Virus record (IMG/VR): IMGVR_UViG_3300027749_000039
Span: 64,001 to 128,000 of that record
Length of the DNA: 64,000 bases
DNA from: a virus
Direction: 5' to 3' (one strand)
Positions 2,241-63,045 of the stretch are shown here, in pieces. Each line of letters begins with the position of its first letter. Position 1 is the stretch's first letter. The position numbers and the translations under genes were made by a program. The notes beneath the pieces were generated by a model. It saw nothing but the letters and a program-made list of their open reading frames with translations. It ran no database searches and was not told the DNA's origin.

Positions 2241-2516
2241 TTATTTAAATGTTATTTTTGTACTTCCAAATCCATATAATGGATTATATTCGTTAATGCA
2301 ACTGCCAACGTGTGGATGTTGTTTTGCTATTTTATGAATAGCAGCTTTTAATACACCCGAACCTATTCCGTGTATTACGGTTATTTCAATTTCTCCTAAT
2401 GCAAGCGCCTTATCTAGTTCATATTCAAACATATCTAATTGTATTTGAAGTGAAAAGCGTGGATCATATCCGGGAGAATTAGTAATCTCAGGAGATAAAT
2501 GCAAATCTACTACCAT
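2241..2516 (-). CDS. stand-alone Smr-domain endonuclease
   Basis: N-terminal VDLH and IHGIGSGVLK motifs typical of Smr/MutS2 C-terminal domains; 91 aa. Confidence 0.85.
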   Translation of the reverse strand: MVVDLHLSPEITNSPGYDPRFSLQIQLDMFEYELDKALALGEIEITVIHGIGSGVLKAAIHKIAKQHPHVGSCINEYNPLYGFGSTKITFK

Positions 2517-53986: not shown

Positions 53987-54651
53987 TGAAAATAGTAACA
54001 TTTAGTGATACACACAATTGTCACGATCAGGTGGTTTTGCCTGATTGTGACAATTGTATTTTTGGTGGCGACTTATCTGGTAGAGGTAACCGAATAGAAA
54101 CATCTTTCTTTTTTAGATGGTATAATGCACAAACGCAATGTAAACATAAAATTATGATTGTCGGAAATCACGATATATGTTTTCAAGAAAAATTTAATGA
54201 AGAAACACAAGCAAACCGTTGGCTCGAAACATTAATAGCGCAATATCCTGATATAATTGTATTAGATAATAGATACCCAGATGGAGTTAGAATTGAAGGC
54301 ATAAACATATATGGCAGCCCAGCTACACCATGGTATCATGGTGAAAGATGGGCATTTAACTACCATAGACAAGATATAGCAGAAATCTGGAGTAAAATTC
54401 CAACAAATACTGATATTCTTATAACGCATGGACCAGCTTATGGTATTTTAGACAAAACTTTAACAGAAAAAAATGCAGGTTGTCCAGAATTGCTACAAAG
54501 AATAAAAGAAATAAAGCCTAAATATCATATATGTGGGCATATACACGAATCATATGGTGCTCATTATGAGGATGAAACTATGCACATTAATTGCTCAATA
54601 ATTGATAAAGATTATTATCCAACAAATAAGCCAATAGATTTTATCTATTAA
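53986..54651 (+). CDS. metallophosphoesterase (MPPED-like)
   Basis: SDTH, GDLS, GNHD, LITHGP, CGHIHE. Confidence 0.9.
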   Translation: MKIVTFSDTHNCHDQVVLPDCDNCIFGGDLSGRGNRIETSFFFRWYNAQTQCKHKIMIVGNHDICFQEKFNEETQANRWLETLIAQYPDIIVLDNRYPDGVRIEGINIYGSPATPWYHGERWAFNYHRQDIAEIWSKIPTNTDILITHGPAYGILDKTLTEKNAGCPELLQRIKEIKPKYHICGHIHESYGAHYEDETMHINCSIIDKDYYPTNKPIDFIY

Positions 54652-59755: not shown

Positions 59756-59786
59756 TTTGTTTTTCGATTTTTATTTCTTATCTTTG
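59756..59786 (+). promoter_or_regulatory. Bacteroidota-type promoter (TTTG-N19-TATCTTTG)
   Basis: tttg 59756-59759, tatctttg 59779-59786. Confidence 0.8.
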
Positions 59787-59801
59787 TAAAAAGAATAAAA
59801 A

Positions 59802-60878
59802 ATGAACTTTTTAGACGAATTTCTCAAATTAACTGCATATACTACGCCATTTAAGCAAGAATCTGATTTAGAAGACTATCTTAATAGCAAAATCCCTGGT
59901 CTTATGAAAGACGCAATCGGTAATTATCATAAAATTATTGGTGATAGTGAAACACTTTTTACTTGCCATCTAGATAATTATTGCCGAGATAAAAGAGCTG
60001 TCACGCATGTTATAGAAGATAATATAATTTGCACTGATGGACTAACTATACTAGGAGCTGATAATAAAGCAGGTGTATTAGTTCTTATATACCTTATAAG
60101 CAATAATGTCCCTGGGCATTATTGCTTCTTTATTGGTGAAGAACCAATTGAATCTGGTGGACTTTATGGTTCTACTTTATTTGCTAAATATTATAAAGAT
60201 ATTAAAAAATTTAAAAGAGCTATTGCTTTTGATAGAAAAGCTACTGGTTCAATTATTACTAGGCAAATGGCTCAAACATGTTGTTCTAATGATTTTGCCC
60301 TTGCTCTTTGTAAAGAATTTAATGATTATGGATTATGGATGGAACCAGACGAAACTGGGTATTATACAGATACAGCTGCATTTTTAGAGCTAATACCAGA
60401 ATGCACTAATATATCTGTTGGCGTATATGACGAACATTCTACAGAAGAATCCATAGATATAGAATATCTAGAAACAATAGCCAAGACAGCCGTCCTAATA
60501 GATTGGGAATATCTACCTACACATAGAACACCAAATTCTTGGATGCCCCTCGAAAATGAGGGTGATGCTATTGTTGCACCTCATATCGAAACGGTGAATC
60601 AAACTTTATATAAAGCAGTTAAATCTATTTTATCTAATTTTAATTTCCGGTGCATGAATAAACTAGACTTTAAAAGTGGTAAAACAATGATGTTTAATAA
60701 TTGGTTTTATGATCTACCATTAACCGTAATTATTAGAAATGCTATTATTACTATAAATGGTAATAGAATACCTATACATGTTGGGCGGAATCAGTTTATT
60801 GATCCACAAGATATACAACATATAATAGAAGGTACAGTAGAAGTAGAGAATATTAACAATTTTGATTGGGATTTTTAA
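59802..60878 (+). CDS. M20/M28-family zinc peptidase-like protein
   Basis: TCHLD, LGADNKAG, FIGEE, AIAFDR, YTDT, NISVG. Confidence 0.75.
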   Translation: MNFLDEFLKLTAYTTPFKQESDLEDYLNSKIPGLMKDAIGNYHKIIGDSETLFTCHLDNYCRDKRAVTHVIEDNIICTDGLTILGADNKAGVLVLIYLISNNVPGHYCFFIGEEPIESGGLYGSTLFAKYYKDIKKFKRAIAFDRKATGSIITRQMAQTCCSNDFALALCKEFNDYGLWMEPDETGYYTDTAAFLELIPECTNISVGVYDEHSTEESIDIEYLETIAKTAVLIDWEYLPTHRTPNSWMPLENEGDAIVAPHIETVNQTLYKAVKSILSNFNFRCMNKLDFKSGKTMMFNNWFYDLPLTVIIRNAIITINGNRIPIHVGRNQFIDPQDIQHIIEGTVEVENINNFDWDF

Positions 60879-60880
60879 AA

Positions 60881-61318
60881 ATGAGTATAAATAACAAAAA
60901 AGCATATTACGAGTATTCTATATTAGAAGAATATGTAGCTGGGCTTAAATTATTAGGTTCAGAAGTTAAAGCATTGCGTGAAGGTAATGGCAATATTAAC
61001 GATACATATGTTCTTATAATGGACGATGAAGTATATGTAAGAGGCATGTATATTGCTAAACATAAAGAGTCATCTTGGATGAATCATGAAGAAGTTCGTG
61101 ATAGGAAACTGCTTTTAACTAAAAAGCAAATCAACGATTTAAAAAAAGATTTGAAAGTTAATGGTATTACCATTGTTCCTATTAGCCTATTTACTATGGG
61201 TGGTAAGTTTAAACTTAAAATAGGTGTAGCAAAGGGCAAAAAGAATTATGATAAGAAACAATCTATCAAAGAAAAGGATATTAAACGTCAAACTGATAGA
61301 GATTTAAATAATTACTAA
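60881..61318 (+). CDS. smpB: SsrA-binding protein SmpB
   Basis: NKKAYYEY, AGLKLLGSEVKALR, RKLLL, IVP, GKKNYDKK..IK tail; start at MSINN. Confidence 0.96.
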   Translation: MSINNKKAYYEYSILEEYVAGLKLLGSEVKALREGNGNINDTYVLIMDDEVYVRGMYIAKHKESSWMNHEEVRDRKLLLTKKQINDLKKDLKVNGITIVPISLFTMGGKFKLKIGVAKGKKNYDKKQSIKEKDIKRQTDRDLNNY

Positions 61319-61555
61319 ATGAAACATACAGAAAAACTAATCCCATTTGGATGGGATGACTGGGAAGAACATGATATATTACTTAATTCTTATTATAATG
61401 TTGAATTTACAGAAGATTTTGGTGAATTTAAAAAAGGTGAGAAATTTTCCTCAATTACTGTAGATTACATTAAAGGTATAATCGAAGCATTTATTGGTTC
61501 TCCTAGTGATGATTTAAAAATAAAAACAGTTGCCTTTAAAGCAACACCTATTTAA
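61319..61555 (+). CDS. hypothetical protein
   Basis: ORF directly after smpB. Confidence 0.55.
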   Translation: MKHTEKLIPFGWDDWEEHDILLNSYYNVEFTEDFGEFKKGEKFSSITVDYIKGIIEAFIGSPSDDLKIKTVAFKATPI

Positions 61556-61556
61556 A

Positions 61557-61647
61557 AAACGAATGTTAAACCACTTGATCATGGGATAGTAGGATTGGTA
61601 TCAATCCAAGATTAATGGCTTCTCAACCCATTTCTATCTATTCGTTT
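61557..61647 (+). ncRNA. candidate structured RNA element 1 (three-way junction)
   Basis: gatag/ctatc closing stem, UA, ggattg/caatcc hairpin, AAGAU, aatgg/ccatt hairpin; outer aaacgaat/attcgttt. Homologous to element 2. Confidence 0.5.
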
Positions 61648-61649
61648 AT

Positions 61650-61729
61650 AAAGCAAATATGACAGTAGGCTAAGCCAAAGTGCCGAGATAATTGGTAAGG
61701 CACACCAATTCTGTCTATTTGCTTTTTTT
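61650..61729 (+). ncRNA. candidate structured RNA element 2 (three-way junction, possible pseudoknot, ends in a U-tract)
   Basis: aaagcaaata/tatttgcttt plus gacag/ctgtc, UA, ggc/gcc, GAGAU, aattggt/accaatt; loop ggcac complements gtgcc. Confidence 0.55.
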
Positions 61730-61731
61730 AT

Positions 61732-61762
61732 TTTGTAAAGTCAAATATTTTTCGTATCTTTG
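61732..61762 (+). promoter_or_regulatory. Bacteroidota-type promoter (TTTG-N19-TATCTTTG) for leuS
   Basis: tttg 61732-61735, tatctttg 61755-61762. Confidence 0.8.
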
Positions 61763-61776
61763 TAAAAATTACAAAA

Positions 61777-63045
61777 ATGAACAAATATATTACAGTCATG
61801 TTTCCTTATCCGTCTGGTGACGGGTTGCACATAGGACATGTATATAATTACGCAATAATGGACTCATATTGTCGCTATATGCGATATATGGGCAACGAAG
61901 TATATCAGCCTTTTGGGTTTGATGCCTTTGGTTTGCCTGCAGAAAATTATGCTAAAAAAGTAGGTAGAGATCCAAAAGATGTCACTTATGAAAACATAGA
62001 AAAGTTCCGTATTCAAATGAAACAAATGAATACTAAATTTGAAGAAGTATTGATTACTTCGGATCCTTCCTACCAGAAATGGACACAATGGTTGTTCATG
62101 AAATTGAAAGAACATGGGCTGGCTTATAAGAAAGACGGTGAAGTAAATTACTGTCCTTCTTGTGAAACTGTATTGGCTCGTGAACAAGTAAAAGAAGGTA
62201 AATGCGAAAGGTGTAGTTCTGTTATTGAGATGAAAACTATGAATCAGTGGTATTTTAAGATTACTGATTATAAAGAACGCTTGATTAAAAACTTGGATAA
62301 AATAGATTATCCTACTTCTACTATTAATGCACAACGCATGTGGTTGGAAAACTTGCATGATTGGTGTGTTAGTCGTCAAAGAAGTTGGGGTTGTCCTATA
62401 CCTATTGAAGGCGAAACAGACACAATGGATACATTTGTCGATTCATCTTTTTATTTTATCCGTTATTGTGACCCATTTAATGAAAATGAAATGTGTGCCA
62501 AAGACAAATATAAACAAGTTGATGTTTATGTTGGTGGTAACGAACATGCTTGTATGCACTTGATTTATGCAAGGTTTATTAACATGTTCTTGTATGATAT
62601 TGGTGTAGTTTCAGAAGAAGAACCTTTTCGGAAGTGCATCCATCAGGGAATGATTCTAAACGAAGGCGAGAAGATGTCCAAATCAAAGGGCAATACTATT
62701 AATCCAGATTCTTATGACCAGGACACCTTAAGATTCTATCTTATGTTTATCGGACATTACTTTGATGGTGGTTCATGGTCTGATCAGAATATAGCTGGTA
62801 TTAATCGCTTTATTAATCGTTTTAAAGAGTGGATGTCAAGAGAGGGTGATGATGTTATAGATGTGCCATCTTTTAAAACTAAAATATCTAATTATACAGA
62901 ATCTTTTAAGTTTAATAAGGTTGTATCTGAATTTATGACATTGGTTAATAAAGAACGGATAAAAAACTTGACCGCAGATTCTAAAGAAGAGTTGATTTCC
63001 ATCTTGGAGATTTACATGCCTGGCATAAGAAATAAATTAATTTAA
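61777..63045 (+). CDS. leuS: minimal leucyl-tRNA synthetase lacking the CP1 editing and C-terminal domains
   Basis: MFPYPSG..LHIGH, GFDAFGLPAEN, Zn finger CPSC/CERC, DW.VSRQR.WG.PIP, DTMDTF.DSS, YVGG.EHA..HL.YARF, KMSKSKGN; 422 aa. Confidence 0.9.
   Translation: MNKYITVMFPYPSGDGLHIGHVYNYAIMDSYCRYMRYMGNEVYQPFGFDAFGLPAENYAKKVGRDPKDVTYENIEKFRIQMKQMNTKFEEVLITSDPSYQKWTQWLFMKLKEHGLAYKKDGEVNYCPSCETVLAREQVKEGKCERCSSVIEMKTMNQWYFKITDYKERLIKNLDKIDYPTSTINAQRMWLENLHDWCVSRQRSWGCPIPIEGETDTMDTFVDSSFYFIRYCDPFNENEMCAKDKYKQVDVYVGGNEHACMHLIYARFINMFLYDIGVVSEEEPFRKCIHQGMILNEGEKMSKSKGNTINPDSYDQDTLRFYLMFIGHYFDGGSWSDQNIAGINRFINRFKEWMSREGDDVIDVPSFKTKISNYTESFKFNKVVSEFMTLVNKERIKNLTADSKEELISILEIYMPGIRNKLI

What the first reader, a model, noticed from the sequence alone, without database searches (positions are those of the whole stretch)
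61557..61729. Tandem pair of homologous, covarying structured elements between smpB and leuS (candidate new ncRNA motif)
Seen: both copies follow outer stem - GAYAG - UA - GG..CC hairpin - RAGAU - hairpin - CURUC - UAUUYG. The closing stem covaries (GAUAG/CUAUC versus GACAG/CUGUC), and both inner hairpins differ in sequence yet still pair. Copy 2 can refold into an H-type pseudoknot (gtgcc 61680-84 with ggcac 61699-703) and ends in a U-tract; copy 1 has a 19-nt insert at the bulge. I cannot match it to a known riboswitch or ribozyme. Inference: a conserved RNA (riboswitch-like attenuator, ribozyme, protein-binding decoy, or SmpB/LeuRS ligand) at the centre of the translation module.
Basis: partly seen in the sequence, partly recalled or inferred. 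Interest (0 to 1): 0.82.

Follow-up and report, generated by a model that had tools for sequence, protein, structure and literature searches.

The report
Conserved folded RNA module, tandem copies
Two adjacent 76-91-base stretches at the end of a giant lake phage's smpB operon are diverged copies of a small folded RNA whose core recurs almost unchanged in a few other uncultured phages; it matches no catalogued RNA family and is not tied to SmpB or LeuRS, and what it does is still open.

Summary
Window 61557-61647 (long form, A) and 61650-61725 (short form, B) share one architecture. A closing helix P1 stacks on a 5-bp helix P2 (GAYAG/CURUC). P2 encloses two hairpins, P3 and P4, joined by UA and RAGA.

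A covariance model built only from A-type sequences finds B at 25.4 bits. I recovered 4 distinct A forms and 3 distinct B forms from metagenomes and IMG/VR. P1 covaries strongly. The inner helices have only a few compensating changes. The A core is 92-96% identical between phages whose LeuRS third codon positions are 64-73% identical.

Rfam, ARAGORN and pattern scans give no known family.

The context contradicts a leuS leader. A Bacteroidota-type promoter lies after the element, so it is the 3' end of the orf358-smpB-orf78 operon, and B plus its U run is the terminator. Other copies sit behind a phosphatase gene, behind their own promoter, or inside a larger RNA in a phage record (80% complete) in which neither SmpB nor LeuRS was found. 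Close relatives with smpB-leuS synteny lack it.

Best reading: a portable structured RNA module, often embedded in a terminator. Its function is unknown.

The parts
59756..59786 (+). Bacteroidota-type promoter (TTTG-N19-TAnnTTTG) in front of orf358-smpB-orf78
   Evidence: 15 such sites in the window against 4.7 expected, and 0 of 100 shuffles reach 15. This site lies 16 nt before the orf358 start.
60866..61318 (+). smpB
   Evidence: Pfam SmpB, E 1.6e-49.
61319..61555 (+). 78-aa ORF without a Pfam family. Its TAA stop lies 1 nt before P1 of the long form.
   Evidence: A homologue lies downstream of the element in L199.
61557..61647 (+). Long form (A). P1 61557-65 with 61639-47. J1/2 61566-84 (invariant 19 nt). 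P2 61585-89 with 61634-38. UA 61590-91. P3 61592-97 with 61602-07. J3/4 61608-13. P4 61614-18 with 61628-32, loop 61619-27.
   Evidence: Segment table. R1 78.5 bits. R2 118.6 bits. P1 covariation.
61650..61725 (+). Short form (B). P1 61650-59 with 61716-25. Bulge 61660. P2 61661-65 with 61711-15. UA 61666-67. P3 61668-70 with 61682-84 (or with 61674-76). J3/4 61685-89. P4 61690-95 with 61705-10, loop 61696-704.
   Evidence: R1 70.1 bits. 25.4 bits against the A-only model. Fold z -4.3.
61723..61734 (+). U-rich run (T7 A T4) directly after P1 of B; with P1 it makes an intrinsic-terminator shape
   Evidence: Sequence. In L178, L194 and L199 the same kind of run follows the single A copy.
61732..61762 (+). 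Bacteroidota-type promoter for leuS, downstream of the element
   Evidence: The -7 box and its flanks are conserved after the element in L178, L194 and L199.
61777..63045 (+). 422-aa LeuRS-like gene
   Evidence: Pfam tRNA-synt_1g and tRNA-synt_1.

Best explanation
A and B are two diverged copies of a self-contained, portable structured RNA domain read from the + strand. P1 and P2 stack, and P2 closes a three-way junction with P3 and P4. The junction nucleotides are conserved (UA, RAGA, the P2 sequence, and the inner four pairs of P1).

In this phage the pair forms the 3' end of the orf358-smpB-orf78 transcript. P1 of B plus the U run stops RNA polymerase just before the separate leuS promoter. 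This would leave a compact 3'-terminal RNA of roughly 170 nt, or separate A and B pieces.

The conserved junction, and in the long form the invariant 19-nt single strand, most likely bind a partner (a protein or another RNA) after release. That makes it an RNA 'moron', or 3'-end-derived small RNA, rather than a leader of leuS.

Shown here: the homology, the P1 pairing, the strand, the position relative to promoters, and the patchy and context-independent occurrence. Inferred: that termination happens at B, that a stable RNA results, and that it acts in trans.
For: - Family: R1 hits of 58-79 bits in the window (two), L176, L178, L194, L195, L199, L200, L168 and L179.
- Pairing: 5 of 13 P1 pairs change on both sides among the 4 A forms, 98% of cells are paired, 0 of 500 shuffles reach this, and slid controls fall to 34-57%.
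- Strand: 7 G-U cells and no A-C cells in the helices, from 4 independent G-U sites. In L176 a promoter site at 2441-2472 (+) ends 6 nt before P1, and a U run follows the element.
- Selection: A-core identity is 92-96% against 64-73% at LeuRS third codon positions. The differences lie in the P3 loop, J3/4 position 5, the first two loop-4 bases and the P3 closing pair.
- Position: the promoter lies after the element. U runs follow P1 in the window (B), L176, L178 and L199.
- Portability: the element is the only tblastx similarity between L176 and the 190-kb genome, and between L179 and L168. It follows three different upstream contexts.
Against:
- The inner helices rest on few events: 3 pairs with double changes, which 106 of 500 shuffles also reach.
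- The consensus fold is 0.4-4.5 kcal/mol above the MFE. The long form has a competing cloverleaf-like fold.
- The short forms in L168 and L179 have no U run and sit inside a larger RNA 25-40 nt before ORFs. Termination is therefore not the family's defining role.
- No target for the 19-nt strand was found in the 190 kb held: the hits at up to 5 mismatches are no more than shuffled seeds give.
- Only 7 distinct sequences exist.
Confidence: 0.4

Rival explanations
1. Conditional terminator (riboswitch- or protein-controlled). The junction is an aptamer embedded in the terminator stem P1. Binding of a ligand or protein decides whether P1 forms, and so whether upstream transcription reads through into the next cassette (leuS here). 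The tandem A+B would act as a two-input gate.
For: - The variable, covarying P1 with invariant junction nucleotides is the usual conservation pattern of aptamers.
- P1 is directly followed by U runs in four contexts.
- In L176 the order is promoter, element, U run.
- The long form has two competing folds.
- There is a precedent for an aptamer embedded in a terminator stem: the HMP-PP riboswitch (PMC6478431).
Against: - A promoter follows the element in the window, L178 and L199, so downstream genes do not depend on read-through.
- Downstream genes differ: leuS, a 253-aa ORF, or the orf78 homologue.
- The short forms of L168 and L179 have no U run.
- No Rfam riboswitch matches.
- No metabolic gene association points to a ligand.
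Confidence: 0.2
2. Ordinary terminator/promoter boundary cassette of a hyperplastic region, as with the PeSLs of T4-like phages. The hairpins only stop transcription and serve as recombination points. The core conservation reflects recent exchange, not an RNA function.
For: - The unit of element, U run and promoter is kept while the ORF after it differs between relatives.
- The smpB-leuS interval holds different small ORFs in each relative.
- PeSLs are composite terminator/promoter sequences that mediate such shuffling (PMC4122927, PMC2839356).
Against: - There are only one or two copies per genome, not a repeated family.
- P1 has diverged with compensation while the 75-nt interior stayed 92-96% identical. 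That is the reverse of what a plain terminator or a recent transfer would give.
- A 75-nt three-way junction is not needed for termination. The relative L006 uses a simple hairpin at the same place.
Confidence: 0.15
3. DNA-level element: a strand-specific single-stranded DNA hairpin (a priming or origin signal, or the end of an IS200/IS605- or REP-like mobile element) rather than an RNA.
For: The inverted-repeat architecture folds equally well on both strands. Occurrence is context-independent. G-T wobble is also tolerated in DNA hairpins.
Against: - The outer stem varies and covaries, whereas transposase-bound ends are conserved.
- I saw no direct repeats flanking the copies, and no transposase-like gene among the neighbouring ORFs I scanned.
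- There are one or two copies per genome.
- It is consistently placed between a stop codon or promoter and a U run on the coding strand.
Confidence: 0.07
4. Leader-peptide attenuator. The long form holds an invariant 8-codon mini-ORF (peptide MLNHLIMG) starting in the last bases of P1 at 61563 and ending in two UAG codons inside P2. Ribosome pausing at its Leu codons, or amber suppression, would block P1 and P2 and allow read-through to leuS.
For: - The mini-ORF is identical in all four A forms.
- It holds UUA and UUG, and leuS uses TTG for 16 of 21 leucines.
- The phage has a CUA-anticodon tRNA.
- Other agents of this scan report leader-peptide attenuators elsewhere in this genome (I did not check these).
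Against: - The short forms lack the ORF yet keep the core.
- Only 2 of 8 codons are Leu.
- An 8-codon open frame is not unusual in 28% G+C DNA (my estimate).
- There is no synonymous variation to show coding.
- The promoter between element and leuS again removes the need.
- No clear antiterminator pairing exists.
Confidence: 0.04
5. tRNA- or tmRNA-like ligand or decoy for the neighbouring SmpB or mini-LeuRS.
For: Adjacency to smpB and leuS in the window and in its nearest relatives. No tmRNA was found in the 190 kb held.
Against: - ARAGORN and the Rfam tRNA and tmRNA models find nothing on either strand.
- There is no T-loop, no G3-U70 and no CCA context (sequence).
- The element is absent from most phages with the same smpB-leuS pair.
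- It is present in a record where neither gene was found.
Confidence: 0.04

Closest known systems
Intrinsic (Rho-independent) terminators
   Same: A stem directly followed by a U run at the end of an operon. There is an A-rich 5' flank and a U-rich 3' flank (B in the window; A in L176, L178 and L199).
   Different: The stem closes a 50-75-nt conserved three-way junction instead of a small loop. The interior is under sequence selection. Some family members (L168, L179) have no U run.
HMP-PP (thiS) riboswitch, a terminator-embedded aptamer (PMC6478431)
   Same: A conserved ligand-binding-like interior sits inside what is otherwise a terminator hairpin. Tandem arrangements are known for that class.
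   Different: There is no sequence or structure match (Rfam). There is no conserved downstream gene, and a promoter follows the element. The resemblance is architectural only.
PeSL composite terminator/promoter cassettes of T4-like phages (PMC2839356, PMC4122927)
   Same: A stem-loop plus promoter unit at the borders of variable small ORFs in a hyperplastic region. Gene content differs between close relatives at exactly this unit.
   Different: PeSLs are many-copy simple stem-loops. Here there are one or two copies per genome, a large branched fold, a covarying stem and an invariant interior.
3'-UTR-derived and terminator-sharing small RNAs of bacteria, such as CpxQ and SroC (own knowledge, not checked here)
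   Same: A small RNA that shares the terminator of an upstream mRNA, with a conserved single-stranded stretch 5' of a structured 3' end. It can also have its own promoter.
   Different: No Hfq- or ProQ-type features or targets were identified. The conserved part is mainly a junction, not a linear seed. It is phage-borne and found in varied genomic contexts.
T-box leaders and tandem glycine riboswitches
   Same: A structured RNA next to an aminoacyl-tRNA synthetase gene, and tandem homologous domains.
   Different: No Rfam match. The element lies upstream of the leuS promoter, not in its leader. There is no T-box sequence or specifier architecture. The association with leuS is not conserved.

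Membership tests
Any Rfam 15 family | Score at or above the family's gathering threshold | tested here: not met
   No hits at gathering in the 64-kb window. The best E in 61300-61900 is 0.48, a snoRNA model at 24.8 bits against a threshold of 60. Nothing over the element in L168, L176, L178 or L179.
tRNA / tmRNA | Cloverleaf or tRNA-like domain with T-arm, found by ARAGORN or the Rfam models | tested here: not met
   ARAGORN finds 0 genes in the window. It finds 46 tRNAs elsewhere in the genome, none here, and no tmRNA. There are no tRNA or tmRNA hits at E up to 10.
T-box leader | Lies in the 5' leader of the regulated aaRS gene, downstream of its promoter | tested here: not met
   The promoter at 61732-61762 lies after the element.
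T-box leader | Stem I with specifier loop, and the T-box antiterminator sequence | tested here: not met
   No match to the Rfam T-box model at E up to 10.
Intrinsic terminator | Stable stem immediately followed by a U run | tested here: met
   In B, the 10-bp P1 is followed by T7 A T4. It is also met for A in L176, L178 and L199. It is weak for A in the window and not met for L168 and L179. The simple scanner does not call it because the 'loop' is 55-75 nt.
Intrinsic terminator | Transcripts end there | not testable with these tools
Leader-peptide attenuator | Short ORF enriched in regulatory codons, plus mutually exclusive terminator and antiterminator | tested here: inconclusive
   There is an invariant 8-codon ORF with 2 Leu codons in the long form only. 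Alternative folds exist, but none is a clear antiterminator.
PeSL-type terminator/promoter cassette | Composite stem-loop plus promoter flanking variable ORFs | tested here: met
PeSL-type terminator/promoter cassette | Repeated many times per genome | tested here: not met
   Only the two adjacent copies in 190 kb.
MITE / IS-end | Conserved terminal inverted repeats, target-site duplication, multiple copies | tested here: not met
   The outer stems differ and covary. I saw no flanking direct repeats. Copy number is one or two.
Tandem-aptamer riboswitch (glycine type) | Two homologous aptamers in one 5' leader, matching the family model | tested here: not met
   No Rfam hit. It is not in a leader. 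Relatives carry a single copy.

The most novel reading that the evidence does not exclude
A previously undescribed, horizontally mobile phage RNA 'moron': a self-contained three-way-junction RNA found in long, short and composite forms. It moves between otherwise dissimilar freshwater phages and binds a host or phage factor, for example as a decoy, an anti-defence RNA, or a sensor embedded in a terminator.
Probability: 0.25. Interest if true: 0.75.

Novelty: new variant of a known kind. Interest (0 to 1): 0.5.

Why it matters
Huge phages are known for protein-coding translation genes and tRNAs. Very little is known about their small structured RNAs.

This one is unusual in three ways. Its interior is kept almost letter for letter while its closing stem drifts with compensation. 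It travels between unrelated gene neighbourhoods. It comes in modular forms: long, short, tandem, or nested in a larger RNA.

If it binds a factor or a ligand, it would be a new RNA class with a compact, testable fold of 50-90 nt. If it is only an elaborate terminator, it still shows how operon borders are built and exchanged in Bacteroidota-infecting megaphages. It also removes a tempting but wrong link to SmpB and LeuRS.

Tried and rejected
- Synteny route: 31 IMG/VR loci with the LeuRS gene carry no motif. CM R1 over 34 whole phage records found only the known copies plus one 18.5-bit chance-level hit, L184.
- Loose pattern scans of IMG/VR returned mostly chance matches. Only L168 was real.
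- The genome-contig scan gave one forced 25-bit hit in a Paenibacillus genome, judged chance.
- The orf78 protein has no IMG/VR relatives.
- Metallophosphatase relatives at 88% or lower identity (P0122-P0125) lack the element.
- The seed-target search for the 19-nt strand in the genome gave nothing above shuffles.
- A longer coding frame with TAG read through is rejected, because P3-loop indels of 4, 5 and 6 nt shift the frame between homologues.
- MAFFT could not align the long and short forms with P1 in register. The R2-based alignment A9 was cluttered by reverse-strand hits. The seven-sequence pair table was therefore made from coordinates in a script, with helix ends chosen by me.
- A remembered resemblance of domain X (L168, L179) to a Cas13b repeat could not be verified in the paper library and is not used.

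Full report
**Setting.** The window is bases 64001-128000 of a 190.6-kb IMG/VR virus record, estimated 31% complete and 28% G+C. It belongs to the huge phages that carry a half-size LeuRS. The nearest GenBank record is the 635-kb uncultured phage LR745206.1. The stretch 61556-61776 is intergenic. It lies between a 78-aa ORF without a family (61319-61555) and the 422-aa LeuRS gene (61777-63045). smpB ends at 61318.

**Observation.** The nine-base words around P2 occur only here in the 190 kb, in register and 76-77 nt apart. I divided each copy into segments by coordinates.
- Long form A is 61557-61647. It has P1 (9 bp), a 19-nt single strand J1/2, P2 (5 bp), UA, P3 (6 bp), J3/4 (6 nt), P4 (5 bp with a 9-nt loop), and one U.
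- Short form B is 61650-61725. It has P1 (10 bp), a one-base bulge, P2, UA, P3 (3 bp), J3/4 (5 nt), and P4 (6 bp with a 9-nt loop).

A simple local alignment of A and B is weak (z 2.9). However, a covariance model built from A-type sequences only (R2) scores B at 25.4 bits. It also scores the short forms of two other contigs at 25.7 and 21.4 bits. The homology is therefore real.

**Relatives.** Synteny did not help. None of 31 LeuRS loci from IMG/VR has the motif. The one with smpB directly upstream (L006) has a plain hairpin terminator instead. Pattern scans found true homologues:
- L168, from a 106-kb IMG/VR phage.
- L176, L178 and L179, from metagenomes.

Looking up contigs of close LeuRS relatives added L194 and L195 (identical to L178), L199 and L200, and L191, the same phage from another assembly. 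This gives four distinct long forms (window, L176, L178, L199) and three distinct short forms (window, L168, L179).

The element is absent from the following:
- 30 further LeuRS-bearing phage records, including seven complete 370-520-kb genomes and LR745206.1.
- L192, L193 and L196-198, whose LeuRS is 87-89% identical.
- More distant relatives of the metallophosphatase gene it often follows.
- One representative genome per prokaryote species, at the stringency of my pattern.

**Structure.** Among the four long forms, 5 of 13 P1 pairs change on both sides. 98% of cells are paired, no shuffle out of 500 reaches the observed values, and sliding the partner drops pairing to 34-57%. Across all seven sequences every cell of P1-P4 as I delimited them is a standard pair. 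There are 7 G-U and no A-C cells (I chose the helix ends).

The inner helices have less support:
- P2 differs by one U-A to C-G swap that splits long from short forms, so it is a single event.
- P3 has one A-U to C-G change, and a C to U change giving G-U in L199.
- P4 has four different sequences that all pair.

On the MAFFT alignment the inner-helix covariation is not significant. The consensus fold is 0.4-4.5 kcal/mol above the MFE. The long form has a competing cloverleaf-like fold in which J1/2 forms its own hairpin. So P1 is established, and the junction is plausible but thinly tested.

**Strand and selection.** The G-U pairs come from four independent sites, and they would be A-C mismatches on the other strand. 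In L176 the only Bacteroidota-type promoter match in the contig (2441-2472, + strand) ends 6 nt before P1, and a U run follows the element. Both point to a + strand RNA.

The long-form interior is 92-96% identical between phages whose LeuRS genes are 64-73% identical at third codon positions. The few differences fall in the P3 loop, one J3/4 base, two loop-4 bases and the P3 closing pair.

**Context.** The pattern TTTG-N17-21-TAnnTTTG occurs 15 times in the window against 4.7 expected. One site (59756-59786) precedes orf358-smpB-orf78. Another (61732-61762) lies between the element and leuS. The element is therefore the 3' end of the smpB operon and not a leuS leader. B with its T7 A T4 run has the shape of an intrinsic terminator.

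The arrangement in each locus is:

| Locus | Arrangement |
|---|---|
| Window | smpB, orf78, A, B, U run, promoter, leuS |
| L178 / L194 | metallophosphatase gene, single A, U run, same promoter, 253-aa ORF, leuS |
| L199 / L200 | metallophosphatase gene, single A, U run, same promoter, orf78 homologue |
| L176 | divergent ORF, own promoter, A, U run (stand-alone) |
| L168 / L179 | outer helix P0 enclosing domain X and a short form, no U run, 25-40 nt before unrelated ORFs |

In L168 and L179 the outer helix P0 has a different sequence in each (17 bp and 6 bp), and domain X is a second conserved domain with its own covarying stem.

By tblastx, the element is the only similarity between L176 and the 190-kb genome, and between L179 and L168. 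No SmpB or this LeuRS was found in the 106-kb record of L168, which is 80% complete.

**Interpretation.** The data fit a portable RNA domain that is frequently built into a terminator, but whose conserved interior serves another purpose. I rank a released, partner-binding small RNA first (0.40). The module can stand alone with its own promoter, can lack a U run, and keeps junction and single-strand sequence rather than stem sequence.

The rivals rank as follows:
- A conditional terminator with an embedded aptamer is second (0.20). The HMP-PP riboswitch shows such an architecture exists (PMC6478431). The promoter after the element and the changing downstream genes weaken it.
- A plain PeSL-like boundary cassette (PMC4122927, PMC2839356) explains the gene shuffling around the unit. 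It does not explain the invariant interior or the single copy (0.15).
- A DNA-level hairpin signal, a leader-peptide attenuator and an SmpB/LeuRS ligand are minor options.

**Known families.** Rfam 15 gives nothing at gathering thresholds in the window and nothing meaningful at E up to 10 around the element or in the homologous loci. ARAGORN finds no tRNA or tmRNA here. I found no description of this motif in two literature searches, which is weak evidence of novelty.

**Verdict.** This is a real and apparently undescribed structured RNA family. It is small and patchy. Its closing helix is well supported and its core is strongly conserved. It is wrongly linked by position to SmpB and LeuRS, and its function is open.

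Noticed in passing
window 61563-61592: The long form holds an invariant mini-ORF (peptide MLNHLIMG) that starts in the last three bases of P1 and ends in two consecutive UAG codons inside P2. The phage carries a CUA-anticodon tRNA (genome 54412-54485). The short forms lack the ORF.
   Followed up: partly
window 61575-61584: Ten bases of the invariant single strand equal the 5'-terminal region of 16S rRNA that the 27F primer targets (from memory; most Bacteroidota differ there by one base). They include the self-complementary hexamer UGAUCA, which could allow dimerisation.
   Followed up: no
L168:318-512 (-) and L179:2700-2872 (-): A larger conserved RNA: an outer helix P0 (17 bp in L168, 6 bp of different sequence in L179) encloses a separate domain X with its own covarying stem, followed by the short-form domain. 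The flanking ORFs are unrelated between the two contigs.
   Followed up: partly
window 59756-61776 and loci L006, L178, L192, L193, L196, L199: The interval between smpB and leuS is hyperplastic. Each relative has a different set of small ORFs (metallophosphatase, 78-aa, 253-aa and others) between the same two genes.
   Followed up: partly
L199:1290-1325: The -7 promoter box after the element ends only 4 nt before the ATG of the orf78 homologue, which suggests a leaderless or nearly leaderless mRNA.
   Followed up: no
window 61777-63045: leuS uses TTG for 16 of its 21 leucine codons, while neighbouring genes prefer TTA, CTT and CTA. An earlier agent's note said the same.
   Followed up: partly
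window, 15 sites listed: Bacteroidota-type promoters (TTTG-N17-21-TAnnTTTG, often with TATCTTTG) are three times over-represented, which points to a Bacteroidota host. Sigma-70-type sites are not enriched.
   Followed up: partly
L179:1233-1356 (-): An Rfam tRNA hit spans 124 nt for a 71-position model, so this may be a tRNA gene with an intron or a long insertion.
   Followed up: no
window 54014-54057: A 20-bp hairpin followed by a T run overlaps a promoter match (54036-54064). This is another composite terminator/promoter unit.
   Followed up: no
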